The notes under the pieces: generated by a model | Told to the model about the DNA's origin: nothing | The model's input: only the letters and a program-made list of their open reading frames with translations | Databases searched by the model: none | Shown: positions 29,016-64,000 of the stretch, piece after piece | Position numbering within the stretch: position 1 is the stretch's first letter | How the letters are laid out: each line of letters starts with the position of its first letter | Assembly (NCBI GenBank): GCA_964035575.1 | Contig: OZ037835.1 | Span: 1,116,001-1,180,000 of the forward strand | Direction of reading: 5' to 3' | DNA: 64,000 nt | Origin: Rhynchopus sp. YZ270_cl-10 | Taxonomy: Eukaryota | Position numbers and translations under genes: made by a program

Positions 29016-29595
29016 TAAAAAAAAGAGGGGCTGGGAGGGGTTCGTTTGTTTGTACATGCCTAAGGCATTCCAAAAGGCAGACAGTGCACCTCTTCGCAAA
29101 GAAGGGATGTGAGCAGGCGGAAGCCTGGTCTGACAAAAAAAAAAGTTTATCGTTTGATAATCACCTTCGGATTCCCAACACATTTGCTTCTGCAACACAT
29201 CACAGTCATGATCTTGCTCCCAACACTGCCACTTGAGCTCACATCTCTAGTCTTCGTTGTTGCTGTTCTGTCAGACATGTCTTTTCTCTTATCGTCCTGG
29301 AAATACAATCTCGTCAAAGTTCCTTCGATACTTCAGTTCAGGGATAATTGGTTGGTTGTCGATCATGACAAAGTTGTACCTGGGCAGACCATCATGAACG
29401 GCCATGAGGGGAGAAGCTTTGAGTGTTGATCGTCTACAGCTGGCTTTGTCTTCTCAACATAATTGTGGATCATTTTCAATAAGAAAATGCAACTGAACAA
29501 CACATCAAGTCTCGAGAAACTCCTTCTTGATATTGGTAGACTGAAGGACTCCATAGCACACCAACGCTCTGATGCTCTAAATGAGCAAGGTGTCT

Positions 29596-30552: not shown

Positions 30553-31266
30553 TTCCAAAAGGCAGCCCGGCTGCGGTGGGGTGCTCAGTCTCGCGCCAGT
30601 TGCGTGGTTAAACCAGTCTGTGTGGGTTTTTGGGTGGTTTTTACCCACCAACGCCTTTACCGTTTTTTGCTGTACAAACATGGGTTGCGTGGCACTGCAA
30701 AGGGCACGTGTGCACGACTGTGTATGACCCATACGTGGTCAAAACACTCCGTAGATGCGTTTCGCACGCCGCATGCACGCGTATGCCTCCTAAAAACCGG
30801 TTTCTGTGTGGTTTTTGACCACAAACGCCTTTGCCGTTTTTACGTGTAAAAACGTGGTACTGCAAAGGCACGTGTGCACCTCTGTATATGACCCATATAT
30901 GGTCATAACACCCCCTAGATGCGTTTCGCACGCCGCATGCACGCGTATGGGCCCTAAAAACCGGTTTCTGGCCCAAAAACCCGCCTAAACAGGTGCTTTT
31001 TTTTTACACGTTTTTACAGCAAAAAAAGTACTAGGCGGTTTGCGACCAAAAAATCGGGTTTCGAGTTAGGTGGTCCAAAAACGGCCTCCTGAGCGCTGTA
31101 ACCGCAGTGTGTCGTTTCCGGGCCAGTATGAGGCCATTCGTACCACTTTTCCAGGTTTTGGAGGCTGTTCGCCGATTTTTGGCATTTTCGGAATTTGGCC
31201 ATCTTTTACCTCTTACTTACCTTAGCAAAAACGACCCCTTTTTTTGGTCGGGGGTTCATGGCCCCA

Positions 31267-32007
31267 TTTCCTTAACACTCGGTGTTAAGGTCTTTAAGGT
31301 TGCTTCAACACCACACACCCCTTAACACCCCCCCCCGGTCCCCCCCCCCAGGGGTGGGTTTCGGCCATTTTTTTTCAGGTCTCTAAACCTCCAGAGAGGT
31401 CAAAAAAGTGGATTCTTGGGAAGATAGGAGGTTTTTTTTAGGGTTTGCAAATGAGAAAGACCTCCAAACCCTGACAGACCCTGAAACCAGGGTGTCGCGA
31501 GTACCCCTTTTTTACACGTGTTTCTTAAGGGTTCTACAGGGTTCTACAGGCAAAACAGGCGTTTTGGCCAGAATCGCGGGTTTTCAGGCAGGTGACCGGG
31601 TTTCCGGCTTGGGAAACGTGCCAGAGCGGTGTGAGAACCATGCGTGGGGGTTTGTAACCACTCGTTGTGTTGGTTGCGTTGCATGCGTTGCGTTCGTTGC
31701 GTACACATAGCTACGTACACACCGGTTGCGGTGCGTTGCATGCGTTGCGTTAGTTGTATAGAGATCGTTACGTACAGAGCGCAACGTACAGAACGGTTGC
31801 GTTGCGTTGGTTGTGTTCGGTTGGTTACGTTCGATGCGTTGCGTCGGTTGCATTCGTTCCGTTCACATCGTTCCGATCTGAACGGAACGATGTGAACGCA
31901 AGAAACGTATCGCATCGTTTGTGTTGGTTGGGTTGTGTGCGTTGCAAACCTTTCATACATCAACCACACCAGCCAGTGAGTGTTAAGGATTGCCAAAAAA
32001 AACTAAA
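31267..32007 (+). mobile_element. Family A element, uninterrupted (741 bp)
   Basis: TTTCCTTAACACTCGGTGTTAAGG...GAGTGTTAAGGATTGCCAAAAAAAACTAAA; directly followed by a family B start. Confidence 0.8.
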
Positions 32008-34640
32008 TTCTAGAAAACACTTGTGTTTTCTAGTTTTTAACCCCCTGCGCGTGGTTTAAAAAACTCCCCCTAAGTCACCCCCCCCTCCCTGGTGGATCCG
32101 ACCAAAATCGACCAAAAATCGGTTTTTTTTTCAGGGTGTAGAAGCTTCGCCCAGCTCAAAAAACTGTTTCTTTGGAAAGATCGGACACTTTTTGGGGGGT
32201 GTATAGGCTCAGCGAAGCGTTAAACCGTTAGAGACCCTGACACCAGGGTGTCACGAGTACCCCTTTTATACACGTGTATCTTAAGGCTTCTACAGGGTTC
32301 TACAGGCAAAACAGGCGTTTTGGCCAAAAACCCCGTTTTTCAGGCAGGTAAACGTGTTTGTATCCCTCAGGGTACACTTTATACCCTCCCTTACGCAAAA
32401 ATTATTCCCTATAGGGTGTAAAATTTACCCACTTTATCTCCCTCCTGCTCACTTTATCTCCCCAGGGAGATAAAGTGAGCAGGAGGGAGATAAAGTGAGC
32501 AGGAGGGAGATAAAGTGAGCAGCAGGGAGATAATAGCTATTTCCCTCCCTCCGTCCGGCGCCCTAGGGATTCACGAGTGCGGAAGAAAAATGCCCGAGGG
32601 CCGAAGGCCCGAGGGCGTTTTTTTTACGCACGAGTGGATCCCGAGGGCCCGGGGAGGGAGGGATGAGGCTTTCCCTCCCGCGGGTGAGGGTTTCCGACCC
32701 TTAAAATACAAAAAAATGCCATTTTACAGCCTGTAAAGTAAAAGCCCGGTGCAATCACTTTACAGGCTGTAAAGTATCGTATCAATAAATATGTGATGCT
32801 CAAAACATCAAAATTTTTCGGTTTTTCGCATTTTTGGGCTGGTCTGCGACCAAAAAAAAAAATTTTTTTTGGCTGAAAAATGTCTTTGCCAAAAAAAATT
32901 TTTTTTGGGAAAGTAAAAATCCCGCCGACTTTACTTTCCCGATCCCGCCGGGAGGGAAAGTGAGCAGGAGGGAGATAAAGTGACCAAAAATTTTTTTTTG
33001 GCAAAGACAAATTTCAGGTGAAAAAAAAAATTTTTTTGGGCTCAGATTGGCCCAAAAATGCAAAAAAACGAAAAATTTTGATGTTTTGAGCATCACATAT
33101 TTATTTCCTGGCCATTTTGTGAATAAAATACCCCCCCTGTACAGTTTGTATGGGCCAGCACCTTAGCAAAAAATCGAAAAATCTCAAAAAAAAAATTTTT
33201 TTTTTCGAGAAAATTTCGACCCTTGACCTGGGTTTTTGGGCACCAAAAAATGCAAAAAAACGCAAAAATCGGGTGTTTTGACCATCTGTGGTTACACAAA
33301 ACACACTTCTGTGTACAAGCGCACACCAATACAGTGGTTATACAAGGCGATTTTTGACCAAAAAAAAAAATTTTTTTTTCGCCCAAAATTTGCCGTGGTA
33401 CCTCATAAAATGGCCCAAAGAATCCAATGAAAACCTCAGATTGGGCAATAGCTATTTCCCTCCCTCCGTCCGGCGCCCTAGGGATTCACGAGTGCGGAAG
33501 AAAAATGCCCGAGGGCCGAAGGCCCGAGGGCGTTTTTTTTACGCACGAGTGGATCCCGAGGGCCCGGGGAGGGAGGGATGAGGCTTTCCCTCCCGCGGGT
33601 GAGGGTTTCCGACCCTTAAAATACAAAAAAATGCCATTTTACAGCCTGTAAAGTAAAAGCCCGGTGCAATCACTTTACAGGCTGTAAAGTATCGTATCAA
33701 TAAATATGTGATGCTCAAAACATCAAAATTTTTCGGTTTTTCGCATTTTTGGGCTGGTCTGCGACCAAAAAAAAATTTTTTTTTTGGCTGAAAAATGTCT
33801 TTGCCAAAAAAAAATTTTTTTGGGAAAGTAAAAATCCCGCCGACTTTACTTTCCCGATCCCGCCGGGAGGGAAATTATGAAAAAAATTTTCAACTCAAAT
33901 TTTCAACCAAAATACGGTCAAAAGTCGCCCAATAGGCTCGCTTCGCTCGCCTATTGAGCTCATTCTGTGGGTTAGGGTCCGGTTTTTTTTCTCGTTTTCC
34001 CGTTTTTTTTTGAAAAATTGCCAAAAAATCAAAAATAATACCCAAAAAGTCACAAAATTCTGAAATTTTGAATTTTTCCCTGATTTTTTTCAGAAATTTC
34101 AAGAAAAATGACAAGGATTCTGGTCTACAGTAGCCTGTATAAGAGACCCTACATAGGGCCTTATAAGCCATTTTTTTTGCTTCGGGAGGTCAAAAGTGCA
34201 CCCTTTGGGATACAAAATTACATATTTACCCCCGGTGAGTTCACTTTATCTCCCCTCGGGAGCCAATATTTCCCCTCGGGCCCTACGGGCCCTCGGGGAA
34301 ATATTGGCTCCCTCGGGGGAGATAAAGTGACTCCCCGGGGGTAGAATAAATAACTATTGCGGCTTGGGAAACGTGCCAGCGCGGTGTGAGAACCATGCAT
34401 GGACCACACACGGCACGAGTTGCAGCAGCCCACCGAAGGTGGGCTGCGTTTGGTACCCACTCGTTACGGTTAACGCGTGTATCGCTTGCAACCGTTGTGT
34501 GCATGTGTAGACGCAAACGGGTTGCCCGCACAACAGAGACGAGCCCTAGTCCACCGAAGGTGGGCTGCGGTTTTTAAGCACTGGTTGGGTTGGTTGCGTT
34601 GCATCCGTACGTACGGAGTGCTTGAGTTGAGTTGCACGAG
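32008..34640 (+). mobile_element. Family B element head (its central minisatellite and nested inserts appear to run to the window end)
   Basis: Hairpin TTCTAGAAAACAC-TT-GTGTTTTCTAG. Body matches 47841-48330. Interrupted at 32361 and resumes at ~34357. Confidence 0.75.
32361..34356. mobile_element. Composite DNA-transposon insertion (TA...TA ends, probable 3-bp TTG TSD)
   Basis: Flanks GTTTG|TATCCC and TAACTA|TTGCGG versus empty GTTTGCGG at ~48217. Internal GGAGATAAAGTGAGCAG repeats in both orientations. ~430-bp direct duplication at 32532-32960 and 33447-33872. Confidence 0.6.
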
Positions 34641-36106
34641 TCCGGTTCGTTACGTTGCGTTCCGTTCGTTGCGTTCCGTTCGGTGCGTTCCGTTCGTTGC
34701 GTTCAGATCGCAACGTACAGATCGGTTCCGTTCGGTGCGTTCCGTTGGTTGCGTTCAGATCGTTGCGTTCAGATCGCAACGTACAGATCGGTTCCGTTCG
34801 GTGCGTTCCGTTGGTTGCGTTCCGTTCGTTGCGTTCCGTTCGTTGCGTTCCGTTCGTTGCGTTCAGATCGCAACGTACAGATCGGTTCCGTTCGGTGCGT
34901 TCAGATCGTTGCGTTCCGTTCGTTGCGTTCAGATCGCAACGTACAGATCGGTTCCGTTCGGTGCGTTCCGTTGGTTGCGTTCCGTTCGTTGCGTTCCGTT
35001 CGTTGCGTTCAGATCGCAACGTACAGATCGGTTCCGTTCTGTTCGTTGCGTTCCGTTCGGTGCGTTCCGTTCGTTGCGTTCAGGTCGTTGCGTTCAGATC
35101 GCAACGTACAGATCGGTACCGTTCTGTTCGTTCCGTTCGTTGCGTTCAGATCGCAACGTACAGATCGGCACCGTTCTGTTCGTTCCGTTCGTTGCGTTCC
35201 GTTCGGTGCGTTCCGTTCGTTGCGTTCAGATCGCAACGTACAGATCGGCACCGTTCTGTTCGTTCCGTTCGTTGCGTTCCGTTCGGTGCGTTCCGTTCGT
35301 TGCGTTCAGGTCGTTGCGTTCAGATCGCAACGTACAGATCGGTACCGTTCTGTTCGTTCCGTTCGTTGCGTTCAGATCGCAACGTACAGATCGGTAACGT
35401 TTACTTTCTCTTTGGGTCATAAGGTACGCCCTTCTCTGACCACGACATGAAACACAAAGCCAAAACAATTGATCACCGGAAAGGTCCTGTATGTCCGTTC
35501 GGTGCGTTCCGTTCGTTGCGTTCAGATCGCAACGTACAGATCGGTTCCGTTCGGTGCGTTCAGATCGTTCCGTTCCGTTCGGTGCGTTCAGATCGTTGCG
35601 TTCCGTTCGGTGCGTTCCGTTCGTTGCGTTCCGTTCGGTGCGTTCCGTTCGTTGCGTTCAGATCGCAACGTACAGATCGGTTCCGTTCCGTTCGTTCCGT
35701 TCGGTGCGTTCCGTTCGGTGCGTTCAGATCGTTGCGTTCCGTTCGGTGCGTTCCGTTCGGTGCGTTCAGATCGCAACGTACAGATCGGTTCCGTTCCGTT
35801 CGTTCCGTTCGGTTCGTTCCGTTCGTTGCGTTCCGTTCGTTGCGTTCAGATCGTTGCGTTCCGTTCGGTGCGTTCAGATCGCAACGTACAGATCGGTTCC
35901 GTTCCGTTCGTTCCGTTCGGTTCGTTCCGTTCGTTGCGTTCCGTTAGTTGCGTTCAGATCGCAACGTACAGATCGGTTCCGTTCCGTTCGTTCCGTTCGG
36001 TTCGTTCCGTTCGTTGCGTTCCGTTCGTTGCGTTCAGATCGCAACGTACAGATCGGTTCCGTTCGGTGCGTTCCGTTCGTTGCGTTCAGATCGCAACGTA
36101 CAGATT
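34640..36106 (+). repeat. CGTT-rich modular minisatellite (core GTTCAGATCGCAACGTACAGATCGGTTCC), continuing at 57769-58856 and 59970-62290
   Basis: Directly visible; same unit in all three blocks. Confidence 0.95.
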
Positions 36107-36585
36107 GGTCCTGAGTATGACCTTAAACTGCTAAGTCGTGAGCGAATGTATCCTAGTAGGTATGGGGAAAGGGGAAGGAGTTCTTTGACCGCCCGAAGGC
36201 TTTGGCTGGGAAGGTATGGGGGGACTTCAGAACCTTTCTTGACCGCCCGTGGATGCATTCTCAAGGATTGGACATGGACACCCCTCCGTAGCGCAACGTC
36301 CCGCTGACTTAGGGTGAGGCAATGTATTGTGGCCCCAAAGTCAGTGCAAAAAGACCCTAGGCTCACCTTTGGAAACTGCATGTGTCTACCTGGTGCATGT
36401 GGACAAACTTCTGGAGACGGGCAGGTTGACGGCGACTACTACGGTAGATCTTTCCAGAAACCGTTGATGCGGCCACCCGGACATGATGACACACAACACA
36501 CGTTTACTTTCTCTTTGGGTCATAAGGTACGCCCTTCTCTGACCACGACATGAAACACAAAGCCAAAACAATTGATCACCGGAAA

Positions 36586-36730
36586 GGGGTTTATACACAT
36601 TACACAACACCACGTGCCACCCTGTTTTTACTTATTTACTTTTTACCACCTCACCCCTTTTATACCTACCGCAGTCGCCTCCCCGTGGCAACCCTGGACG
36701 GTCAAGAAGAGTGACCGACTAAGAACTGCG
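36586..36730 (+). ncRNA. HDV-like self-cleaving ribozyme fold in the LINE 5'UTR
   Basis: P1 GGGGUU (36586-91)/AACCCU (36690-95); P2 CGCAGU/ACUGCG; P3 GCC/GGC; L3 UCCCCGU; P1.1 CC/GG; P4 CGGUCA/UGACCG; J4/2 ACUAAG with C36719; ~78-nt J1/2. Confidence 0.8.
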
Positions 36731-36909
36731 ATCAGGAGAAACAGGGTCTTCTAACATTACTTTATTTTTATTTTTATTTTAAGTGTAATACCTATTATAC
36801 TTTTGCCTGCTATTCGCTTTTGACCTGGTAAGTCTGCTTTTGTTTCCTTTCCCCCCTTCAACAACCTCCGCACGCCCACCTACCCTTTGCTAATCCCACC
36901 CCCCACAAC

Positions 36910-38439
36910 ATGACCTCACCGGATCACGCCATGGACGTAGATGCAGAGACGCAGCCGGCACCCTCCCTCACGCTCCGGAACCCGGCGGCAACGCCAGCAG
37001 CCGCGGCACGGCTAGCGGAAGCAGAAGGCTTCCTGCTGGAAGTGTCGCGGTCGGCGCATGACGCGCACGAGTGGGAGAAGAACGCAGACGAGAAGGCGAG
37101 GCAAGTCCTCTCGCAACACCGTATGTCAGTCTCCCCCCTCACCCTCAAAAGAAGAGAACCCTCCTCTCAACATATTTTTAAATTTTATTTTGAGGGAATC
37201 CCATCCCCCGAAGCCCCCATACTATCTTTCTCCGGTGTGAACGGGGTGTTCATACGCCCCGCCCGCACCAACTCAAATGACGGACTTACGTCGGTCATTT
37301 GGCCAGAAGCGTCCTACGACGAAACGCTGGAGCACTCGGAAAGAGTACAGGGGAGGGTGGTAATGGGTAGATTAGGGGATTTCGGGATCGTTGTCCCAAA
37401 AAAGGACGAAGTGAAGGCATGGGAAACAGTGGGAAAGGCGGAAAGGGCAGGGGAGGCAAGCTACAGGCTCACCGGCTTACCCACCACGTGCACACCCGAG
37501 GACCTAGTGTCGGCAATTTCCCAAACGGGACGCCACATCAGAGGGAGAAGCACTCGCAGGGAAACAGCACCCGGGGGCACACACACACACACACTCCTGG
37601 TCGCAATGCATGCACAACCACCACCCCCACCCTCCTTCACATTTGGGGAGCATGTGATCGTCTGCACACCAGCGATCCATGCAAAATTCCCCCCACACAA
37701 AAAAAACACGACCTCACAGACACAAAAAGGAGGAAAGGGGAGGGGGAGAGGAAAGGGCTACCAAAGCCCAGGAGCAAAGGGTCAGGGCGGGGGCAGGGGA
37801 GGAGCAAAGAGCGGGGAAGGGGGGAAGCAGGCACACAGTGCATCCCTCCCAATGGGAGTAGGGCTCGGCCAGAATGCAACGTCCCCCAAAACGGTGGGAG
37901 GCGATGGGAACGAGAACATGGGTGGAAAGGGAAGCGGGAAGGGGAACAAGGGAGGCAAGGGAAAGGGGAGCGTACCAGCGACCGGACCCTCAGTTTGGGA
38001 CGCGAGGTTTTCCGATTTGGAAAAGAGAGTGGAAGCTCTCTCTACAAATCAGGAAAACCTCGCGTCACAATTGAGGGTGGGCTTAGCCGAAGGCTTCGAA
38101 CAAATCAGCCAAGGGTTATCGCTAAGCCTAGAAAAGCTCCTCCCCAAGAGCACAAGACCCGGAAAGAAAGGCGGTGCAAAACTAAGTGTCGACACCAACA
38201 TCGGCACAGAAGACGACGAAGAAATGACAGAAGGCAAAACGCCTTCGTCAAAGACACCGCTACCGTCTGGATCCCCCAGGAAAACGCCCAAAGGGAAAAG
38301 GGCGAGGGTGGGAGAGGAGCACGCGCGGAACACGTCCGCCAAGACTGGGGACAGCTCCCCCACAGCCCGGACGATACCGGGGGGGATAACGGTGCGGTCG
38401 CCGCGGTCCAGCAACAAGGGGATCAAACTCGTCGTGTAG
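36910..38439 (+). CDS. LINE ORF1 (gag-like nucleic-acid chaperone by position), 509 aa
   Basis: Intact ORF upstream of ORF2 with G/K-rich region and coiled-coil-like segment (FSDLEKRVEALSTNQENLASQL). No CCHC knuckle seen. Confidence 0.8.
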   Translation: MTSPDHAMDVDAETQPAPSLTLRNPAATPAAAARLAEAEGFLLEVSRSAHDAHEWEKNADEKARQVLSQHRMSVSPLTLKRREPSSQHIFKFYFEGIPSPEAPILSFSGVNGVFIRPARTNSNDGLTSVIWPEASYDETLEHSERVQGRVVMGRLGDFGIVVPKKDEVKAWETVGKAERAGEASYRLTGLPTTCTPEDLVSAISQTGRHIRGRSTRRETAPGGTHTHTLLVAMHAQPPPPPSFTFGEHVIVCTPAIHAKFPPHKKNTTSQTQKGGKGRGRGKGYQSPGAKGQGGGRGGAKSGEGGKQAHSASLPMGVGLGQNATSPKTVGGDGNENMGGKGSGKGNKGGKGKGSVPATGPSVWDARFSDLEKRVEALSTNQENLASQLRVGLAEGFEQISQGLSLSLEKLLPKSTRPGKKGGAKLSVDTNIGTEDDEEMTEGKTPSSKTPLPSGSPRKTPKGKRARVGEEHARNTSAKTGDSSPTARTIPGGITVRSPRSSNKGIKLVV

Positions 38440-38834
38440 ACCATACCACCACCCCCCTCCCTATCTCTCCAACCCCACCCTCCCTAATCCAACCTCCTCC
38501 AACTACACACAAACTCATCCCCCTTACACCCCACAAAACAAAACATGTACCGGTACAGCAGCACCAACAACAACAACATCAGCAGCAACAACAGCAGAGG
38601 CACCTAATACGACAGCAACAACAACAACATCACCAGCAGCAACAACAGCAGCATCAACAGCAGTGGCCGCTTACACGACAACAACAACAGCAACATCACC
38701 AGCAGCATCAACAGCAGCAACGACAGCTACAACAACAACGGCAACAGCAACAACAACAACGACAACATCACCAGCAGCAGCAACAGCAACAGCACCAACA
38801 ACTGCACCAACAGCTGCAACCATCTGAGGGACGA

Positions 38835-38903
38835 CGCCACCTCCTACACCTGAGACGTCTACTTCTCCTGAGGTGCGGCGACGTAGAGCAGAACCCCGGA
38901 CCA
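38835..38903 (+). other. 2A-like ribosomal skipping (StopGo) peptide
   Basis: RHLLHLRRLLLLRCGDVEQNPG|P matches the DxExNPGP consensus and lies immediately before the APE domain. Confidence 0.9.
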
Positions 38904-41726
38904 GAGGAAGCCCTGAAGCTGATCAGCTTCAACTGCAACGGGCTGACCGAGCAACGGGAAGAGGAGCTGCAGGAGTTACTGAACTCGGAGCACTTCGATG
39001 TGGTGGCTCTGCAGGAGCTGAAGGAGGCGCAGACAGCACTGCCCGCGTTCCCGGGCTACACCCCCTTCCTCCGGAAGCGCACGCAACGCCGCACCCCCAA
39101 TGGCAGCCTGTACTCCGGAGGCGGCATAGCCACGCTGGTGCACACAAGCCACCAAGCCTCCCTCACCTGGGCCAGCGGGGAGCCAAGTGTGACGGAGCGT
39201 CTTGACGTGAGGGTGACGACGGAGCATCGGGAGTACACGGTGACGAACCTGTACCGACCTGGAGGTGTAGGCAGCAGCGCTGATGACCTGCGTGTGGACG
39301 ACTTCTCTGCAGATGACCTCCCCTCCGACGAAGACTCCATCATCCTCGGTGACTTCAACGTCCACCACCCTGCGTGGGACCTCCAAGCGAAGCCAGATGC
39401 CAAAGGGTCACAGCTACACCAGTGGTCGCTGCGCAACGCCATGCAGGTGCTCAACTGCCCCAACACAGTCACGCGCTTCTCCGGAACAGTCTTCTCCTCA
39501 CCGGACATCACCTTGGTACACAGGAACGTAGAAGCCACATGGACCACACTTTGCGCACGAGGCTCCGACCACCTCCCCATCCTAGTCACAGTGCAACCTC
39601 CGACGGAAGGGGAGGAAGTGAACGGAGGCGACGAAGACGCGACAGTGCCCGAACACCTGCTGAGATGGTGCTGGTCACGTGCGGATTGGGAGGCGTACAC
39701 GGCAGAGCTGGAGCGTTACGCCCCCAAGGCCCACAACTGGGGTGGTGTAGATGCGGTGAACAGGTTCACGGGATTGTGCAAAAACATCGCAGAAAAACAC
39801 ATCCCACTCTCCCACCACACCTCCACACCAAGGGTCAGGAAGTCGTGGTTCACTCCTCAGGTCCATGAATTGCTGCAAGAACGCAACGCAGTGACGGAAC
39901 TACTTCTCTCCGCGGACGAGACGGAACGCGACGTCCAAGCCGAAAAGCTGAAAGAGCTGAAGGTCGCCACCTCCTGTGCCATCATGGATGCGAAGCAGCA
40001 GGCATGGGTGCGTAGCTGCAACGCCGCCACACCACCACCTCTCAGCAGCACTTTCCGGAGGTTGAAGGAGCTCAGTGGTGACCGGGTGAAACCCATCACC
40101 AAAGCAGTCGCTACCCCGGAGGGCCCTCTGACGAACACACCGCAGGAAAAAGCGAACACCCTGGCCCGCTACTTCGCCGCAGTGAGTGGAGACGGCACGC
40201 CCCCTTCTCTCGCCAACCCGCAGCGTACTGCTAGGCGCAACAACACACAGAGCGCGGGCTACACCGGAGCGGCAAGCGAAGCTCCCTTCACCTTGCCGGA
40301 GCTCGATTACGCGATGAGCTCGCTGAAGCTGGGCAAAGCACCTGGGCTGGACGAGATGCACAACGAGCTCTTGCTGCATCTTGGGCCCAAAGGACGAGAC
40401 GCCTTACTCCACGTCCTCAACTTATCCTGGTGCAAAGGTGAACTCCCTACATCGTGGCTGCAGAGCAACATCGTGCCCATCGCTAAGAACGGGAAGGACG
40501 CCAGCATCCCCGCGTCGTACCGCCCCATCTCTCTTACGAGCAACGTCTGCAAACTCTTGGAGAAGATGGTCAAGTGCCGCATCACCCAGATGCAAGACAG
40601 TCCGGACCTGCCGCAGTACAGGGGCCCACACCGCACACAAGCAGGTTTCCGCCGTCGTCTCTCCACGATAGACCAGCTCGCGGCGCTCATGCAGCGGGTG
40701 AATGCGGGGAAGAACCGCCCCACCATCGCACTCTTCTTCGACGTAGAAAAGGCGTTCGACACTGTGTCTCGCAAGCGCATACTCCAGGCGCTGAAGCACA
40801 AGCAGCACCTGCCACCACGCTACCTCAACTGGATTGAAGCCTTCACCAGTGACCGCTCCGCCTGTGTTTCAGTGGATGGAGCAAAGAGTGCGCAGTACGT
40901 GATGAGAGCTGGAGTACCGCAGGGTACAGTACTGTCACCCCTCCTTTTCCTCGCTGCTATGGACGAAGTTGCGGAAGCGCTCGACGACCTCAGTGCAACA
41001 TATCCCACATTCTTCGCCGACGACATGGCAGTCACCGTGCAAGGGGAAACATTAGGGGAAGTGCAAGAATTGGCGCAAGCGGTCATCAACCGTGTCACAG
41101 CGGCGATGGAGCCACTCGGAATGCGCCTCTCCAGCACAAAGACCGTCTTCACCTTCTTCGGCACAAGAAACGTCCTCAACAAGTACCCGTTAGCGGCCGA
41201 CACAGAACTTTGGCTGAGGAACGGTATTCGGGTGCCCTACTCCGCCACACCCAAATACCTGGGATTGACGCTGGATCCGTCCTTGACGATGGAGGCACAC
41301 ACCACCGCAGTCATCACCAGGGTGCAAAAAAGGCTCGGTCTGATGAAGATGTTGTCTGGAACCACGTGGGGAGCTAACACACACACCCTCCGCACCACCT
41401 ATCTCACATACGTACTTCCCCTGATCCGCTATGCTCTTGGCATATACGGTCCACAGCTGTCAACACACCTGATGGACAAGCTGGAGGCCGAACACAACGC
41501 CGCGGCGCGTATCATCACCGGATGTCCTTTGCCTACGTCTCGCGCCAAATTGCTGTGGGAGGCACGCCTGACCCCGATAGTGGACCTGATGCGATTGGAC
41601 GCCGTAACTGCGTTCGAGTTGTTTCGGCGTCACACCGACACGCCAGGGAAAGCGGCCTGCGGCTACACCTCCGCCTCCCTCACGCTCAACAACTGGCTCT
41701 CCGCCGCCCAGCGACTCTCCTCCGAG

Positions 41727-42134
41727 CAGTGCTACCAACGCGACAAGTCGCGCGCGACTCGCGACAAACCACCCGCGACAGCGCGACAAAATGAGTTGTC
41801 GCAAAAATCGAAAATTTTTTTTTTCCATTTTGAGACACTTTTTTTTTTTTTTTTGTTAGGAAAAATCGCGTTTTTTCCGGGTACTTAGCAAAATTTTGGT
41901 CAAAAAATGATGGCTTTTGCTTACGTCGCTACTGTACCGTCTGCGATGGTTTTTTCTGGATTTTTTTTTTTGGATTTTTTTTTCCAAAATCGCCCACACC
42001 CAAAAAAAAAAATTTTTTTTTTTTTTGGTGAAAATTTTTGTGATGTCGAAAAAAAAAATTTTTTTTGGGCGCGACAGCGCGACAAGTGGCACTTTGTCGC
42101 GCGACTAGAATCTCTTGTCGCGTTGGTAGCACTG
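41727..42134. mobile_element. 408-bp MITE, 21-bp perfect TIR CAGTGCTACCAACGCGACAAG, 7-bp TSD CTCCGAG
   Basis: TSD at 41720-41726 and 42135-42141. Empty site present in the minus-strand LINE at ~52028. Confidence 0.93.
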
Positions 42135-43784
42135 CTCCGAGGCACACAAGGAGTTCCGCAGACCTGGGGTGCATATGGCAGATATGCAGCGTCACCTGCC
42201 TGTAGACCCGTGGTATTGGAGTGACGTACTGCCCCGCCTAAGTATCACCGCCACGATACCTGGGATACGCCGCTCCGACCCTGAGCCAGATGACGAAAAA
42301 TTCCTGCTCCTCACAGAGGAGGCCCTCCAACGCCTTCCCCCCTGCGAATGGCACGCCTACACCGACGGCTCTGTCCAGGGCAAAAGCGGGGGTGCTGGGG
42401 TAGTGCTGTACAAGCTCCCCGAGATGCGAGAACCCAACTGCTCCTTCTCCTACGGGGCCGGCACCGGCGCAAGCAGCTTTCAAGCCGAAATGATCGCCAT
42501 AGGCCACTCCATTGACCTTCTCTTTGACAAAGCAACCCCTGGGGCCACCTGCGCCATCCTCACAGACTCGCAATCGTCCCTGCGTGCGCTAGAGAGCGGT
42601 CCCAAGAAGGCCAGAGAGGACTTCGAACACAAACTCTGGAAAGGACTACACCGGCTTGCCGGCAACAACATAAACCTAATACTGCACTACGTCCCCTCGC
42701 ATGTGCAGGTCCTGGGCAATGATGCTGCTGACGCTGCGGCCGCAGAAGGCACCAAGATGGTGCAGAGCCCTGGCCTGTCCTTCTCTGCCGCCAGATCATG
42801 TGCGAGACGTCACCTGGCGAACACCCCTTCCGTCGAGCAGCCCGGCACGAACACGGTGTACGCCAGGAAGGCCGGAGCGGACGTAGCGGTGCTGCAACCT
42901 CCCGTCCACTGCACGGACCTCACCCGCAGGGGGGAAACCACCATCCGCAGCCTCCGAGCTGGCAGCAACCAGCTAACGTTCGACTTCCGCACCTCGTCGA
43001 ACACTGCCACATGCCTGCGATGCGACAAGCCCTGCACCCTGAAGCACCTGTTCTTCTCCTGCCGACAAACGTGTAGCGAAAGCCTCCCGGACCTCCATAC
43101 CCTCCTCATGCGAGAGCCGGCGACCGCCCTGAAGTACCTCGTCAGCGAGAGTTTCCTGCCTGGCCCGCTTGAGGAGTACCTCCGTAACGGTAGTTAGTCG
43201 TGACTGAGTTGTTGTTGATTAATATTATTATGTTCTGTGTTTAATCTTGTGTCATAGGCTGCAGTACGACTTACGTCGCGCTGCTAGCCCCTGACAACAA
43301 GCGTGTTATTCATGTCCCCCTATTTACAACGGGTATTTTGTTGCTTTTCTGCTGTCTTTCCCCACATGTTACCCAATCAAAAGCCTTTCGTTCGCTCATT
43401 CAGCGTTCCCCCTACCCATTTTTCCACATCTCTACCACACTTCTCACACCGTAGAAATCCCTGATGCATAATTCTCTCTCGCTATTGAAGCCCCAGGTCC
43501 CTCCGCACTCGAAGTACGCCCAGAGAGGCGTACTCCACATTTTACCCAGCGGACGCTTCTTTATGCACCTAGTTATCCCCTTTTTATGCCGCCACTCCCT
43601 ACACTCTCTGTACCACAGCACAATGTATTTACCGCTCTTTTGGAGGTCAACAGTCGTTAAACACAAGTAGATTAGGAGCATCTGACTGTACATTAATCAA
43701 TTAAAGCAAACTATACATGTGCGGACGGAGGTGTACCACACATCTACCCTACGAATGCTCTTCCCGTGCCCCAATTCCCCCCTA

Positions 43785-45712
43785 TTTAGTTTTTTTTGGC
43801 AATCCTTAACACTCCTGGCTGGTGTGGTTGATAAACGCAACCGAACACAACGAAACGGATCCGCTCTATACGTTACGATCCGTATGCAACCAAAGCATGC
43901 AACGCAACGCAACCTATGTGTACGTAACGATCAGAACGCAACGAACGCAACGTAACGGATGCAACACAACCAACGCAACCTATGCGTACGTTGCGATCTG
44001 TTTATATCGATCTCAACATAACGAACACAACGCATGCAACGCAACGCAACCGATGTGTACGTAACGATCAGAACGCAACGAACGTAACGAAACGAACACA
44101 ACCAACGCAACGGATGCAACGCAACCTGTGTGTACGTTGCGTTCTGTATGCAACGCGTGCAACACAACGCAACCTATGCGTACGTTGCGATCTGTACATA
44201 TCGATCTCTACACAACGAACGCAACGCATGCAACGCAACGCAACCGATGTGTACGTAACGATCGGAACGCGTTTTCTGCCACGACAACCCCCAGACTCAG
44301 CCCCTGCCCGTGGCCCGATGTAGTACCCTAAGCACACCCGATTGCGGCACAGGCAAATGCGACGACAAGGGGAGGAGGGGTGGGGAGAGCGATGGGTACC
44401 TGAAGTGGAAGTTGCGCCTCTGCTGGGTGTCCGAGTCTCATAGGTAATAACACGAGCCACATGCCCCAAAAGTACGCCACCAACACCCCAACAAGGGCAA
44501 ATCGTGTACGCCGCCACAACACAAACCTACCTAAGAGATCAGGGCTCCTGGTGGGGGTTTGCGACTGCCACAGATGCCTGCCTCTCACTCTGCCCGCCCC
44601 CTCGCCCCTAAAGACACACAAACACACCAGTCACTGCATTTTGTTGATGTTAAAATCGATTGCGCCCTGGGTGCTATCTTGGGATATGAAAGGGGGAAAG
44701 CGTGTGATGGGGGCGAGCTGTGTGTACCCTATTTGCTGCCTTACGTTTCACTTTCCACACCGCCCCATATAAATACACACTAGTTATACTTACACAATGC
44801 ATATTCCCTTTTATTTTTTTTTTTTTTGAGTGACTTTTAAGCGTATACCTTTGGCTAAGCACGCCACGACACCGCTTACATTACTGCGCGCACCACTCCA
44901 TTTGTATTTTCCAGTTTTAGGGGAGGTATCCTCGCGTACGAGTTGTTTGACTCCAAAGTGATTCCCCGGCCTCTCAAGCAAGCAGGAGACCAACGTCAGG
45001 GGAGGTGTAATGAGATACCCTGGGCCGTGCCCACCTTTTGTGTTCTGTTCATTTTGTTTGAGTGGTGCGCCCACCTTGCTTTTTGTTCATTGTGTACTAA
45101 CCTATCGCAATAAAAAGACCACTAAAGGCCAAAGAGAAAAAAAAAAAAAAAACGCAACGAACGTAACCAACCGAACACAACCAACGCAACGCAACCGCTC
45201 CGTACGTTGCGCTCTGTACGTAACCATCTCTACACAACGAACGCAACGTATGCAACACAACGTAACCGGTGTGCTCGTAGCGATGTGTACGCAACGTAGC
45301 GAAGGCAACGCAACCAACGCAACGAGTGGTTACAAACCCCCACGCATGGTTCTCACACCGCTCTGGCACGTTTCCCAAGCCGCAAACCCGGTTGCCTGCC
45401 TGAAAAACCGGGTTTTTGGCCAAAACGGCTGTTTTGCCTGTAGAACCCTGTAGAAGCCTTAAGAAACACGTGTAAAAAAGGGGTACTCGCGACACCCTGG
45501 TTTCAGGGTCTGTCAGGGTTTGGAGGTCTTTGCTTCAGAGAAAGTCTCCTAAAAACCTCCTATCTTCCCAAGAATCCACTTTTTTGACCTCTTTGGACGT
45601 TTAGGGACCTGAAAAAAAATGGCCGAAACCCACCCTGGGGGGGGGGTGCCTTAGGGTGGGTGGGTGGGGTGGTGAAGCAACCTTAAAGACCTTAACACCG
45701 AGTGTTAAGGAA
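43785..45712 (-). mobile_element. Family A element in the LINE 3'UTR, itself containing a LINE 3' stub
   Basis: Same termini as 31267-32007, reversed. Empty site CCTA|TTTAATAC confirmed by ~50349-50362. Confidence 0.85.
44272..45152 (+). mobile_element. 5'-truncated LINE copy (~0.88 kb)
   Basis: Ends AATAAAAAGACCACTAAAGGCCAAAGAG(A)n. Short TSD AACGC; empty site at ~59400. Confidence 0.88.
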
Positions 45713-58108: not shown

Positions 58109-58856
58109 TTCCGTTCGGTGCGTTCCGTTCGTTGCGTTCCGTTCGGTGCGTTCCGTTCGTTGCGTTCAGATCGCAACGTACAGATCGGTTCCGTTCGGTG
58201 CGTTCAGATCGTTGCGTTCCGTTCGGTGCGTTCAGATCGTTGCGTTCCGTTCGGAGCGTTCCGTTCGTTGCGTTCAGATCGCAACGTACAGATCGGTTCC
58301 GTTCGGTGCGTTCCGTTCGTTGCGTTCCGTTCGGTGCGTTCCGTTCGTTGCGTTCAGATCGCAACGTACAGATCGGTTCCGTTCGGTGCGTTCAGATCGT
58401 TGCGTTCCGTTCGGTGCGTTCAGATCGTTGCGTTCCGTTCGGAGCGTTCCGTTCGTTGCGTTCCGTTCGGTGCGTTCCGTTCGTTGCGTTCAGATCGCAA
58501 CGTACAGATCGGTTCCGTTCGGTGCGTTCAGATCGTTGCGTTCCGTTCGGTGCGTTCCGTTCGTTGCGTTCAGATCGCAACGTACAGATCGGTTCCGTTC
58601 GGTGCGTTCAGATCGTTGCGTTCCGTTCGGTGCGTTCCGTTCGTTGCGTTCCGTTCGGTGCGTTCCGTTCGTTGCGTTCAGATCGCAACGTACAGATCGG
58701 TTCCGTTCGGTGCGTTCAGATCGTTGCGTTCCGTTCGGTGCGTTCCGTTCGTTGCGTTCAGATCGCAACGTACAGATCGGTTCCGTTCCGTTCGTTCCGT
58801 TCGGTTCGTTCCGTTCGGTGCGTTCCGTTCGTTGCGTTCAGATCGCAACGTACAGA

Positions 58857-59969
58857 TTAGTTTTTTTTGGCAATCCTTAACACTCACTGGCTGGTGTGGT
58901 TGATAAACGCAACCGAACACAACGAAACGGATCCGCTCTATACGTTACGATCCGTATGCAACCAACGCATGCAACGCAACGCAACCGATGTGTACGTTAC
59001 GATCTGTATGCAACGAACGCAACGCATGCAACGCAACGCAACCGATGTGTACGTAACGATCAGAACGCAACGAACGTAACGCATCCAACGCAACGCATGC
59101 AACGCAACGCAACCGATGCGTACGTAGCGATCTGTATGCAACGAACGCAACGCATGCAACGCAACGCAACCGATGTGTACGTAACGATCAGAACGCAACG
59201 AACGTAACGCATCCAACGCAACGCATGCAACGCAACGCAACCGATGCGTACGTAGCGATCTGTATGCAACGAACGCAACGCATCCAACGCAACGCATGCA
59301 ACGCAACGCAACCGATGTGTACGTAGCGATCTGTATGCAACGAACGCAACGTAACGGATGCAACGCATGCAACGCAACGCAACCGATGTGTACGTAGCGA
59401 TCGGAACGCAACGAACGTAACCAACCAAACACAACCAACGCAACGCAACCGCTCCGTACGTTGCGCTCTGTACGTAACGATAGCTACACAACGAACGCAA
59501 CGCATGCAACACAACGTAACCGGCGTGTACGTAGCGATGTCTACGCAACGAAGTCAACGCAACCAACGCAACGAGTGGTTACAAACCCCCACGCATGGTT
59601 CTCACACCGCTCTGGCACGTTTCCCAAGCCGCAAACCCGGTTACCTGCCTGAAAAACCGGGTTTTTGGCCAAAACGCCTGTTTTGCCTGTAGAACCCTGT
59701 AGAACCCTTAAGAAACACGTGTAAAAAAGGGGTACTCGCGACACCCTGGTTTCAGGGTCTGTCAGGGTTTGGAGGTCTTTGCTTCAGAGAAAGTCTCCTA
59801 AAAACCTCCTATCTTCCCAAGAATCCACTTTTTTGACCTCTTTGGACGTTTAGAGACCTGAAAAAAAATGGCCGAAACCCACCCCTGGGGGTGGGGAGGG
59901 TGGGTGGGTGGGTGGGTGGGTGGGAGGTGATCAGCAACCTTAAAGACCTTAACACCGAGTGTTAAGGAA
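58857..59969 (-). mobile_element. Family A element with expanded central repeats
   Basis: Same termini; empty site CAGA|TTGGTTCC occurs elsewhere in the minisatellite. Confidence 0.85.
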
Positions 59970-62290: not shown

Positions 62291-64000
62291 GGTCCTGAGT
62301 ATGACCTTAAACTGCTAAGTCGTGAGCGAATGTATCCTAGTAGGTATGGGGAAAGGGGAAGGAGTTCTTTGACCGCCCGAAGGCTTTGGCTGGGAAGGTA
62401 TGGGGGGACTTCAGAACCTTTCTTGACCGCCCGTGGATGCATTCTCAAGGATTGGACATGGACACCCCTCCGTAGCGCAACGTCCCGCTGACTTAGGGTG
62501 AGGCAATGTATTGTGGCCCCAAAGTCAGTGCAAAAAGACCCTAGGCTCACCTTTGGAAACTGCATGTGTCTACCTGGTGCATGTGGACAAACTTCTGGAG
62601 ACGGGCAGGTTGACGGCGACTACTACGGTAGATCTTTCCAGAAACCGTTGATGCGGCCACCCGGACATGATGACACACAACACACGTTTACTTTCTCTTT
62701 GGGTCATAAGGTACGCCCTTCTCTGACCACGACATGAAACACAAAGCCAAAACAATTGATCACCGGAAAGGGGTTTATACACATTACACAACACCACGTG
62801 CCACCCTGTTTTTACTTATTTACTTTTTACCACCTCACCCCTTTTATACCTACCGCAGTCGCCTCCCCGTGGCAACCCTGGACGGTCAAGAAGAGTGACC
62901 GACTAAGAACTGCGATCAGGAGAAACAGGGTCTTCTAACATTACTTTATTTTTATTTTTATTTTTATTTTTATTTTAAGTGTAATACCTATTATACTTTT
63001 GCCTGCTATTCGCTTTTGACCTGGTAAGTCTGCTTTTGTTTCCTTTCCCCCCTTCAACAACCTCCGCACGCCCACCTACCCTTTGCTAATCCCACCCCCC
63101 ACAACATGACCTCACCGGATCACGCCATGGACGTAGATGCAGAGACGCAGCCGGCACCCTCCCTCACGCTCCGGAACCCGGCGGCAACGCCAGCAGCCGC
63201 GGCACGGCTAGCGGAAGCAGAAGGCTTCCTGCTGGAAGTGTCGCGGTCGGCGCATGACGCGCACGAGTGGGAGAAGAACGCAGACGAGAAGGCGAGGCAA
63301 GTCCTCTCGCAACACCGTATGTCAGTCTCCCCCCTCACCCTCAAAAGAAGAGAACCCTCCTCTCAACATATTTTTAAATTTTATTTTGAGGGAATCCCAT
63401 CCCCCGAAGCCCCCATACTATCTTTCTCCGGTGTGAACGGGGTGTTCATACGCCCCGCCCGCACCAACTCAAATGACGGACTTACGTCGGTCATTTGGCC
63501 AGAAGCGTCCTACGACGAAACGCTGGAGCACTCGGAAAGAGTACAGGGGAGGGTGGTAATGGGTAGATTAGGGGATTTCGGGATCGTTGTCCCAAAAAAG
63601 GACGAAGTGAAGGCATGGGAAACAGTGGGAAAGGCGGAAAGGGCAGGGGAGGCAAGCTACAGGCTCACCGGCTTACCCACCACGTGCACACCCGAGGACC
63701 TAGTGTCGGCAATTTCCCAAACGGGACGCCACATCAGAGGGAGAAGCACTCGCAGGGAAACAGCACCCGGGGGCACACACACACACACACTCCTGGTCGC
63801 AATGCATGCACAACCACCACCCCCACCCTCCTTCACATTTGGGGAGCATGTGATCGTCTGCACACCAGCGATCCATGCAAAATTCCCCCCACACAAAAAA
63901 AACACGACCTCACAGACACAAAAAGGAGGAAAGGGGAGGGGGAGAGGAAAGGGCTACCAAAGCCCAGGAGCAAAGGGTCAGGGCGGGGGCAGGGGAGGAG
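62291..64000 (+). mobile_element. Third LINE copy, 5' end (ribozyme fold 62770-62914; ORF1 from 63106, runs off the window)
   Basis: Appears identical to 36107-37804 except for a 12-nt longer TTTTTA repeat. Confidence 0.93.

What the first reader, a model, noticed from the sequence alone, without database searches (positions are those of the whole stretch)
36586..36730. HDV-like ribozyme located ~480 nt inside the LINE 5'UTR rather than at its 5' end
Seen: all HDV elements in the right order (P1 GGGGUU/AACCCU with a G1.U wobble, P2, P3 GCC/GGC, L3 UCCCCGU, P1.1 CC/GG, P4, J4/2 ACUAAG) with a long J1/2. The TSD places the element start at 36107. Known: in R2, L1Tc/ingi and RTE elements HDV-like ribozymes normally define the 5' terminus. 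Inference: cleavage at 36585/36586 would release a 479-nt leader and leave an uncapped ORF1/ORF2 RNA, so only uncleaved RNA could give full-length copies. This could act as a switch between translation and replication.
Basis: partly seen in the sequence, partly recalled or inferred. Interest (0 to 1): 0.85.

Follow-up and report, generated by a model that had tools for sequence, protein, structure and literature searches.

The report
Self-cutting RNA inside a LINE leader
A 7.7-kb jumping gene (LINE) carries, 479 bases in from its front end, a sequence that fits the whole fold of the hepatitis-delta-type self-cutting RNA, and the predicted cut falls at the end of a front module that one public data set also holds joined head-to-tail, so cutting would likely decide whether the RNA is translated or copied whole.

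Summary
The motif is real. Positions 36586-36730, and the identical second copy at 62770-62914, fit every element of the HDV-like double-pseudoknot fold. A descriptor I wrote hits only these two places in the window. A stricter version hits 0 times in 1000 shuffled windows. Rfam gives no match.

A paralogous empty site at 58858/58859 joins the 5' flank of 36107 directly to the 3' flank of 43788. So leader plus LINE body fill one gap, and the ribozyme lies 479 nt inside it.

The predicted cut (36585/36586) matches the 3' edge of the 479-nt leader module. In one public run short contigs join 36585 back to 36107. The leader has 13 ATGs. The 324 nt from the cut to the ORF1 start have none.

Best reading (about 0.5): an internal ribozyme, probably slow, that would split an AUG-rich leader from a translatable body RNA. 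Main rival (0.27): an ordinary 5'-terminal ribozyme behind a separate upstream repeat.

Cleavage, RNA ends and covariation are all untested. It is a new variant of a known kind.

The parts
36107..36585 (+). 479-nt leader module. It holds 13 ATGs and two G-rich sub-repeats, and gives no tRNA or Rfam match.
   Evidence: The left edge comes from the empty site and from contig starts in X1, X3 and X6. The right edge comes from contig ends at 36585 in X1 and X8 and the 36585-to-36107 join in X1. ATG count. tRNA scan. Rfam.
36586..36591 (+). P1 5' strand, GGGGUU. The predicted cut is 5' of G36586.
36592..36669 (+). J1/2 linker, 78 nt, with 3 G in 78. It is predicted to be unstructured. ACCCC at 36653-36657 can pair with the P1 5' strand instead of the P1 3' strand.
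   Evidence: Fold of -1.4 kcal/mol, z -0.71, and the alternative helix in the MFE of 36586-36735. Composition.
36670..36675 (+). P2 5' strand, CGCAGU.
   Evidence: The MFE fold recovers P2.
36677..36689 (+). P3 (GCC/GGC) enclosing L3 (UCCCCGU). C36681-C36682 form P1.1. U36680 and G36685 sit where the conserved L3 U and G lie.
   Evidence: The role of the L3 G and U is from PMC3774820, passages.
36690..36697 (+). P1 3' strand AACCCU, then GG (the P1.1 3' strand).
36699..36717 (+). P4 hairpin, 6 bp with a 7-nt loop.
36718..36724 (+). J4/2, ACUAAGA, with the candidate catalytic C36719.
36725..36730 (+). P2 3' strand, ACUGCG.
36731..36909 (+). Rest of the 5'UTR. It has no ATG and contains a (TTTTA)n tract at 36752-36791 that is two units longer in copy C.
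36910..38439 (+). ORF1, 509 aa, no Pfam family.
37371..41888 (+). ORF2 frame: Q-rich region, a 2A-like DVEQNPGP at 38880-38903, then the APE endonuclease and reverse transcriptase. In this copy it is cut short by a 408-bp inverted-repeat insert at 41727-42134.
42130..43197 (+). RNase H part of ORF2, moved out of frame by the insert. In copy B it is continuous with the rest of ORF2.
43198..43788 (+). 3'UTR. The element ends ...CCCCCCTATTTA with no poly(A).
   Evidence: The 3' ends of copies A and B coincide.
62291..64000 (+). Copy C, with leader, ribozyme (62770-62914, C62903) and the start of ORF1. It runs off the window and is identical to copy A over 654 of 654 nt from the leader start.
50353..56864 (-). 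Copy B, 5'-truncated at copy-A position 37946, so it has no leader or ribozyme. It carries a roughly 1-kb foreign insert, and its 3' flank differs from copy A's.
58844..58885 (+). Empty paralogous site. The satellite end ...CGCAACGTACAGATT is joined through one A to GTTTTTTTTGGCAATCC...

Best explanation
The 145 bases at 36586-36730 fit the complete HDV-like self-cleaving ribozyme fold and lie 479 bases inside a 7.7-kb LINE segment that an empty paralogous site lacks, so the RNA is predicted to cut itself after A36585, which would separate a 479-nt AUG-rich leader from an AUG-free, uncapped ORF1/ORF2 RNA.

Shown:
- The fold fits and is far above chance.
- The motif is present in both full-length copies.
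- The segment 36107-43788 is absent from an otherwise matching site.
- The predicted cut coincides with a module edge seen in public contigs.
- The ATG counts differ sharply on the two sides of the cut.

Inferred:
- Transcription starts at or near 36107, in the leader.
- Cutting is slow or partial, because the 78-nt J1/2 is unstructured and the P1 5' strand has a rival partner within J1/2.
- Uncut RNA would then be the template for full-length copies. Cut RNA would be the translatable form, with the ribozyme fold possibly helping cap-independent initiation, as proposed for R2 and L1Tc.
- The head-to-tail leader joins would arise when the element's reverse transcriptase copies a released leader after reaching a template's 5' end.
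For: Fold:
- Every helix and junction pairs as described.
- The descriptor parameters match the R2 ribozyme consensus: P1 of 6-7 bp, P2 of at least 5 bp, J1/4 of 0-2 nt, P4 variable (PMC3774820, section 16).
- The loose descriptor gives 2 hits in the window, both in LINE copies, against 13 hits in 300 shuffles. The strict descriptor gives 0 hits in 1000 shuffles.
- The nested MFE fold of 36660-36735 returns exactly P2, P3 and P4 (-21.1 kcal/mol, z -2.0, 9 of 200 shuffles as good).

Position:
- The empty site 58844-58885 carries both flanks of 36107-43788 with one A between them. The 3' flank is 193 of 204 aligned columns identical.
- The X3 contig runs unbroken from 36107 to 37177.

Edge at the predicted cut:
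- X1 and X8 contigs end at 36585.
- X1 and X5 contigs of the LINE body begin at 36583.
- In X1 one joint runs from 36585 through an extra A to 36107 (word depth 182.8). One contig leaves after 36587 into the 25 letters that follow G36108.
- X1 word depth is 2328-2609 on the leader and 878-1087 on five contigs between 36583 and 37400. The tool warns that depth is not copy number.

ATG counts: 13 ATG in the 479-nt leader (shuffle mean 7.7, P of at least 13 is 0.035). 0 ATG in the 324 nt after the cut (shuffle mean 3.3, P of 0 is 0.034).

Precedent from papers:
- J1/2 loops of 216-498 nt in active silkmoth R2 ribozymes (PMC3774820, passages).
- Long unstructured J1/2 slows HDV-like ribozymes by up to about three orders of magnitude (PMC4908430, abstract and passages).
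- An IRES-like role has been proposed for these ribozymes (PMC6765202, section 11 passages).
Against: - No Rfam family matches at any threshold tried.
- No covariation test is possible. Copies A and C are identical over 654 of 654 nt, and no variant letters appear in 36586-36751 in the runs that cover it.
- The descriptor finds 0 hits in 79 metagenome loci (331,260 nt) encoding distant ORF2 relatives. Those relatives are at most 43% identical in their best segment, and many loci lack 5' ends.
- The contig evidence for the leader-to-leader join comes from one run (X1). The same is true of the two 55-nt X1 contigs across 36585/36586.
- The empty site fits a two-step history equally well: leader unit first, then the LINE body at its end.
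- The unstructured J1/2 and the alternative helix (36586-36590 with 36653-36657) could make the ribozyme weak or inactive.
- The ATG statistics are modest, and the post-cut region is G-poor.
Confidence: 0.5

Rival explanations
1. This would be an ordinary 5'-terminal ribozyme. In this reading the LINE proper starts at G36586. The 479-nt unit is a separate repeat, a promoter-bearing or co-transcribed unit that also occurs on its own and in tandem. The ribozyme trims the LINE RNA out of a read-through transcript, as in R2 with 28S or L1Tc with polycistronic RNA. The unit and the LINE would lie together because the LINE lands at unit ends, or because cDNA synthesis jumps from the cut LINE RNA onto a unit RNA.
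For: - The predicted cut is exactly the unit/LINE border.
- Unit contigs have about 2.2-3.2 times the word depth of LINE 5' contigs in X1 and X5.
- In X5 and X6 the main unit contigs leave the window's sequence after 36577, so the unit family also occurs in other contexts.
- The post-cut 5'UTR is ATG-free, as expected of a true 5'UTR.
- The empty site is compatible with two successive insertions.
- This is the known role of HDV-like ribozymes in LINEs (PMC6765202 passages; PMC3774820 abstract).
Against: - Both full-length copies in the window carry the unit with an identical joint.
- The X3 contig spans the joint.
- In X1 the two short contigs across the joint sum to 793 of the 1074 depth of the LINE 5' contig.
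- No contig shows a LINE 5' end behind any other sequence, although low-depth flanks would be trimmed from contigs.
- The LINE is not site-specific. Copy B has a different 3' flank, and neither 3' flank is the unit (0 of 2).
- The unit's 3' end (...CCGGAAA) does not resemble the LINE's 3' end (...CTATTTA), so independent mobilisation of the unit by this LINE has no visible basis.
Confidence: 0.27
2. The fold would be a relic or a look-alike that no longer cuts, or never did. In this reading the module edge at 36585/36586 has another cause, such as a DNA-level duplication or an A-run polymorphism that breaks assembly graphs.
For: - No Rfam match.
- No covariation data.
- An unstructured 78-nt J1/2 and a competing helix for the P1 5' strand.
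- Part of the contig breaks near 36583-36587 is explained by an AAA/AAAA length variant.
- Neither copy of the element in the window is intact: copy A carries an insert in ORF2 and copy B is truncated.
Against: - The strict motif gives 0 hits in 1000 shuffles of the window.
- It sits on the sense strand, in the 5' region of a LINE. That is where such ribozymes are known to act.
- The 36585-to-36107 join has its right end within the 3-position window that contains the predicted cut and its left end at the insertion's first base. I estimate about 3 chances in 800 for a random edge in the 5' region.
- The core matches the conserved L3 U and G and the C-N-A-A of J4/2.
Confidence: 0.1

Closest known systems
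R2 retrotransposon 5' ribozymes (HDV-like). Source: PMC3774820 (abstract, passages and section 16 read).
   Same: - The same double-pseudoknot layout: P1 of 6-7 bp, P2 of at least 5 bp, a 3-bp P3, L3 with a conserved U and G, a catalytic C in J4/2, and a variable P4.
- Long J1/2 loops are tolerated (216-498 nt in silkmoths).
- The ribozyme removes upstream co-transcribed RNA.
- Cleavage need not be at the element's own first base: in R2 it can lie up to 36 nt upstream, in 28S.
   Different: - R2 has a single ORF and a restriction-like endonuclease, and it is site-specific for 28S rDNA.
- In R2 the RNA removed is host rRNA, not a module that travels with the element.
- Here the element is an APE-type, two-ORF LINE with RNase H, and it is not site-specific.
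- Here the cut would lie 479 nt downstream of the insertion's first base.
L1Tc/ingi Pr77-L1TcRz of trypanosomatids. Sources: PMC3185411, PMC3383444 and PMC4035085 (only abstract starts in search listings seen); PMC6765202 (passages).
   Same: [quoted passage not shown]
- Promoter and ribozyme functions are combined at the front of the element.
- The transcripts are described as poorly translatable.
- A 2A-like peptide precedes the enzyme domains. For L1Tc this is recalled and comes from no call. Here it is DVEQNPGP.
   Different: - In L1Tc the ribozyme and the promoter are the same first 77 nt, and the cut is at the element's first base.
- Here the ribozyme is 145 nt with a 78-nt J1/2 and sits behind a 479-nt leader.
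- Membership of the ingi clade was not tested.
Tandem promoter monomers of mouse L1 5'UTRs (recalled; no paper read).
   Same: A repeated upstream module, with head-to-tail copies ahead of the non-repeated part of the 5'UTR.
   Different: - No ribozyme is known at the monomer/body border of mouse L1.
- Here the tandem state is seen only in short contigs of one run.
- Promoter activity of the unit is untested.
Twister-variant ribozymes upstream of Perere-3 LINEs in Schistosoma. Source: PMC8501958 (passages read).
   Same: A self-cleaving ribozyme at the front of an APE/RT LINE is co-transcribed with it. [quoted passage not shown]
   Different: The ribozyme class is different (twister, not HDV-like), and it lies at the element's 5' end.

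Membership tests
HDV-like self-cleaving ribozymes (fold class) | Nested double pseudoknot with the strands in the order P1-J1/2-P2-P3-L3-P3'-P1'-P1.1-P4-J4/2-P2'. | tested here: met
   All strands pair in this order. The descriptor hits only the two LINE copies. Shuffle hits: 13 in 300 (loose) and 0 in 1000 (strict). The MFE fold recovers P2, P3 and P4.
HDV-like self-cleaving ribozymes (fold class) | The cleavage site is 5' of the first P1 nucleotide. P1 is 6-7 bp. | tested here: met
   P1 is 6 bp and starts with G36586.U36695. The P1 length range is from PMC3774820, section 16. [quoted passage not shown] Only the position is predicted; the cut itself is not shown.
HDV-like self-cleaving ribozymes (fold class) | A catalytic C in J4/2, and in L3 two C that form P1.1 plus the conserved U and G. 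| tested here: met
   C36719-U-A-A. L3 is UCCCCGU with U36680 and G36685. C36681-C36682 pair with G36696-G36697. The importance of the L3 G and U and of the catalytic C is from PMC3774820 passages.
HDV-like self-cleaving ribozymes (fold class) | Mg2+-dependent self-cleavage giving a 5'-OH and a 2',3'-cyclic phosphate. | not testable with these tools
   No RNA run is listed for this sequence. A bench assay is needed.
HDV-like self-cleaving ribozymes (fold class) | Helices kept by compensatory changes in relatives. | tested here: inconclusive
   Copies A and C are identical over 654 of 654 nt. No variant letters appear in the covered contigs. The descriptor finds 0 hits in 79 loci of distant relatives, and closer relatives could not be fetched.
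Rfam HDV-type ribozyme families (covariance models) | A match to a curated model at or near its gathering score. | tested here: not met
   0 matches at gathering scores. No HDV-type match at E up to 10 in 36000-37000 or in 36655-36745. The 78-nt J1/2 and the pseudoknots may explain the miss; that is my inference.
5'-terminal LINE ribozymes (R2 / L1Tc type) | The cut defines, or lies upstream of, the first base of the inserted element. | tested here: not met
   The empty site shows that the filled gap begins at 36107, 479 nt upstream of the predicted cut. A two-step insertion history would restore membership and is not excluded.
Monomer-type LINE 5'UTR (mouse L1 type) | Head-to-tail repeats of a promoter unit upstream of the body. 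| tested here: inconclusive
   Both window copies carry a single unit. A 36585-to-36107 join appears in short contigs of run X1 only. Promoter activity was not tested.
APE-type LINE with RNase H | Endonuclease, reverse transcriptase and RNase H domains in one ORF2. | tested here: met
   Pfam Exo_endo_phos 2.6e-13, RVT_1 3.3e-29, RNase_H 6.3e-9. Copy B has a continuous 1406-aa frame. Relatives at 37-39% identity carry the same three domains.

The most novel reading that the evidence does not exclude
The ribozyme makes a free 479-nt leader RNA. The LINE's reverse transcriptase then copies that leader by end-to-end template jumps after reaching the 5' end of its template. This would put the promoter-bearing leader back on cut RNAs and stack leaders head-to-tail, with an occasional untemplated A at the joint. 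It would be an RNA-level mechanism for how LINE 5' monomer arrays are built and renewed.
Probability: 0.2. Interest if true: 0.85.

Novelty: new variant of a known kind. Interest (0 to 1): 0.6.

Why it matters
HDV-like ribozymes in LINEs are known as devices that define the RNA's 5' end. Here the fold sits behind a 479-nt module that appears to travel with the element, and the predicted cut is the module's exact edge. If the cut is real, one transcript would have two fates:
- Uncut RNA is full-length and carries the leader, but it is loaded with 13 upstream AUGs.
- Cut RNA has lost the leader and is uncapped, but its 5'UTR has no upstream AUG.

That makes a long-standing question directly testable: how a LINE balances its RNA between translation and serving as the copying template. 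The head-to-tail leader join, if confirmed by long reads, would also suggest how tandem 5' monomers of LINEs arise, which is unexplained for mouse L1 (recalled).

Tried and rejected
- **Whole genome:** none is held for this window, so no genome-wide tally of copies starting at 36107 versus 36586 was possible.
- **RNA evidence:** no RNA holder is listed among 12 runs, so nothing can be said about expression or RNA ends.
- **Cover gaps in laid contigs:**
  - X6 has no contig on 36579-36785, although it covers the leader and ORF1.
  - X8 covers only 36172-36585.
  - X9 laid nothing.
  - X5 shows no contig on 36579-36582.
  - The tool states that such holes prove nothing, so I draw no conclusion from them.
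- **Leader pairing with J1/2:** rejected as a specific feature. The duplex energy is -43.6 kcal/mol against -42.7 +/- 4.6 for shuffled J1/2, and 38 of 100 shuffles are as good. The first attempt timed out.
- **Whole 36107-36735 fold:** no more stable than shuffles (z +1.59).
- **Site-specific insertion into the leader unit:** rejected. 0 of 2 LINE 3' flanks are the unit.
- **Other occurrences of the spacer after the element:** GTTTTTTTTGGCAATCC... also occurs at 31998 and 13661 on the minus strand, behind ...ATTTA. No LINE ORF lies beside either place, so I dropped a target-site preference.
- **Alternative continuations seen in contigs:** neither is in the window.
- **Other searches that found nothing useful:**
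  - tRNA scan: 0.
  - Genome contigs: no relative.
  - Protein atlas on ORF1: best score 0.80, below the level the tool calls meaningful.
  - Earlier findings of this scan: none for this genome or this sequence.
- **Literature:** three searches listed no paper on an HDV-like ribozyme behind a repeated leader module. That covers only the held library and the listed rows. The key paper by Ruminski et al. 2011 is not held, so a precedent there cannot be excluded.

Full report
**What is there**

The window holds three copies of one non-LTR retrotransposon.

- Copy A lies on the + strand from 36107 to 43788.
- Copy C (62291 to the window end) is identical to A over the first 654 nt. It is 99.3% identical over 1.8 kb.
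- Copy B lies on the minus strand (56864-50353). It is 5'-truncated at copy-A position 37946 and carries a foreign insert of about 1 kb.

The element encodes:

- ORF1 at 36910-38439, with no Pfam family.
- ORF2, with an APE endonuclease, a reverse transcriptase and RNase H.

In copy A the RNase H part is out of frame, because a 408-bp insert with 21-bp inverted ends sits at 41727-42134. Copy B has one continuous 1406-aa frame. The element ends ...CCCCCCTATTTA without poly(A); copies A and B agree up to that point and differ after it. The nearest non-self proteins are unnamed, 37-39% identical, and have the same domains.

**The observation**

- P1: G36586-U36591 with A36690-U36695, 6 bp, first pair G.U.
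- J1/2: 36592-36669, 78 nt.
- P2: 36670-36675 with 36725-36730.
- P3: GCC/GGC, enclosing L3 UCCCCGU (36677-36689).
- P1.1: C36681-C36682 with G36696-G36697.
- P4: 36699-36704 with 36712-36717.
- J4/2: ACUAAGA, with C36719 followed by U-A-A.

These sizes fall within the published R2 ribozyme consensus: P1 of 6-7 bp, P2 of at least 5 bp, J1/4 of 0-2 nt, P4 variable (PMC3774820, section 16). L3 has the U and the G that form the conserved reverse wobble (PMC3774820 passages).

**Is it more than chance?**

I wrote a descriptor with those published ranges. It was written after I had seen the candidate, so it is not blind.

- On both strands of the window it hits twice, at the two full-length LINE copies and nowhere else.
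- In 300 dinucleotide-preserving shuffles of the window it hits 13 times, about 0.04 per window.
- A stricter form (P2 and P4 of 6 bp, U and G in L3) keeps the two real hits and gives 0 in 1000 shuffles.
- The only 6-nt partner for the P1 3' strand on the + strand between 33607 and 36690 is at 36586.
- A nested MFE fold of 36660-36735 returns exactly P2, P3 and P4 (-21.1 kcal/mol, z -2.0).

Against this, Rfam gives no match on the whole window at gathering scores. It gives no HDV-type match at E up to 10 on 36000-37000 (4 unrelated weak matches) or on 36655-36745. I attribute the miss to the long J1/2 and the pseudoknots, but that is inference.

**Where the element starts**

The longest word shared by the flanks is 4 nt for a start at 36107 and 5 nt for a start at 36586, which is the commonest value for random 46-nt pairs from the window.

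The window does contain a better test, an empty paralogous site.

- At 58844-58885 the satellite end ...CGCAACGTACAGATT runs, through a single A, straight into GTTTTTTTTGGCAATCCTTAACACTC....
- The first part is the 5' flank of 36107.
- The second part is the 3' flank of 43788, and it stays 193 of 204 aligned columns identical for about 200 nt.

So 36107-43787/8 fills a gap that is closed elsewhere, and the motif lies 479 nt inside it. Contigs of three public runs also begin at or within 5 letters of 36107, and one X3 contig runs unbroken from 36107 to 37177.

One caution applies. The empty site equally allows two successive insertions at the same point: the 479-nt unit first, and then the LINE body at its end.

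**The predicted cut is a module edge**

I laid public contigs on the region. All are contigs of runs whose kind is not on record.

- X1 and X8 have contigs that end exactly at 36585.
- X1 and X5 have LINE-body contigs that begin at 36583.
- In X1 one joint goes from 36585 through one extra A to 36107 (word depth 182.8).
- Another X1 contig leaves after 36587 into the 25 letters that follow G36108.

Because GG follows A36585 in both contexts, the join can be placed at three positions. With the left edge fixed at 36107 by the empty site, the right edge is 36585/36586, which is the predicted cleavage site.

An AAA/AAAA length variant sits at the same point. It appears both in unit-to-body contigs (depths 377 and 416) and in the unit-to-unit join.

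X1 word depth is 2328-2609 on the unit. It is 878-1087 on five contigs from 36583 to 37400, so the ribozyme segment goes with the body in depth and not with the unit.

Limits of this evidence:

- The tool warns that depth is not copy number.
- The junction contigs are short, with fewer than 31 letters on a side.
- The head-to-tail join is seen in one run only.
- One holder may be the window's own source.

**Two further observations**

- The leader has 13 ATGs in 479 nt (shuffle mean 7.7). The 324 nt from the cut to the ORF1 start have none (shuffle mean 3.3; P about 0.03 each).
- The 78-nt J1/2 has 3 G and no predicted structure (-1.4 kcal/mol). The P1 5' strand can instead pair with ACCCC at 36653-36657.

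[quoted passage not shown] Even so, silkmoth R2 ribozymes with J1/2 loops of 216-498 nt do cleave (PMC3774820). So slow or partial cutting is the natural expectation here.

**Most likely mechanism (confidence about 0.5)**

Transcription would start in the leader, at or near 36107. The ribozyme would cut part of the transcripts after A36585. Uncut RNA would be copied into full-length elements that keep the leader, as in copy A. Cut RNA would lack the 13 upstream AUGs and would be the translatable form. The ribozyme fold might help cap-independent initiation, as proposed for R2 and L1Tc (PMC6765202 passages).

The fold, its position, the edge and the ATG pattern are shown. The start site, the cut, its rate and the translation effect are inferred.

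**Rivals**

1. *Ordinary 5'-terminal ribozyme (0.27).* The unit would be a separate repeat that supplies transcription, and the LINE proper would start at G36586. In favour: the unit's higher depth and its other continuations after 36577 in X5 and X6. Against: both window copies, the X3 contig and most of the X1 junction depth have the unit joined to the body. The LINE is also not site-specific.
2. *Inactive look-alike or relic (0.1).* It is hard to reconcile with 0 of 1000 shuffles and with the match between the predicted cut and an independently observed edge.

**Most novel reading not excluded (0.2)**

Released leader RNAs would be re-copied by end-to-end template jumps of the element's reverse transcriptase. 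This behaviour is known for R2; I saw only the reference-list entry for Bibillo and Eickbush 2004. It would explain three things at once:

- a repeat unit bounded by the element's first base and the cut site;
- the extra A at the joints;
- how cut RNAs could regain a leader.

**Comparison with what is known**

The fold class is known, and so is its use in LINEs (R2, L1Tc/ingi, RTE and others, as summarised in PMC6765202). What differs is the position behind a 479-nt module that fills the same gap, and the coincidence of the cut with that module's edge.

Three literature searches listed nothing like it. The main survey of LINE ribozymes (Ruminski et al. 2011) is not held, so a precedent cannot be excluded.

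No covariation test was possible. The 79 distant relatives from metagenomes gave 0 descriptor hits, which is weak evidence either way.

**Verdict**

The motif is real and non-random. The internal position is supported by an empty site rather than by a TSD. Function is unproven. I rate it a new variant of a known kind, with interest 0.6.

Noticed in passing
window 41727-42134: A 408-bp insert with perfect 21-bp terminal inverted repeats (CAGTGCTACCAACGCGACAAG...) and a 7-bp duplication (CTCCGAG). It looks like a MITE. It splits ORF2 of LINE copy A between the reverse transcriptase and RNase H, and it is absent from copy B.
   Followed up: partly
window 38880-38903: A 2A-like 'ribosome skipping' motif, DVEQNPGP, sits directly before the endonuclease domain of ORF2 and follows a long Q/H-rich tract. 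2A-like peptides in LINEs are known (recalled).
   Followed up: no
window 34640-36106, 58100-62290 (+ orientation) and 29480-30640, 43834-44270, 58860-59570 (opposite orientation): Large arrays of a complex satellite built on units of about 14 nt (CGTTCCGTTCG.../...CAACGCAACG), in both orientations. The LINE copies and several other repeats are embedded in them, and the layout looks like a higher-order repeat.
   Followed up: partly
window 44272-45152, 48393-49273 (-), 55167-56054 (-), 57103-57757: A repeat of about 0.88 kb, more than 98.9% identical between copies, with a long T run at one end (a poly(A) tail on the other strand). One copy is inserted into LINE copy B. It is probably a young non-autonomous retroposon.
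   Followed up: no
window 31978-32040 (-) and 13641-13680 (-): The spacer GTTTT..GGCAATCCTTAACACTC that follows LINE copy A recurs twice on the minus strand, each time behind ...ATTTA. At 32000-32030 it lies next to a perfect 11-bp-arm palindrome, CTAGAAAACAC..GTGTTTTCTAG.
   Followed up: partly
window 36752-36791 versus 62936-62985: A (TTTTA)n tract in the LINE 5'UTR differs by two units between copies A and C. Public contigs also break here.
   Followed up: no
window 7764-7898 and 38543-38851: In-frame short tandem repeats: 9-nt CACCCCAAG units, and 9-15-nt CAG/CAA-rich units inside ORF2.
   Followed up: no
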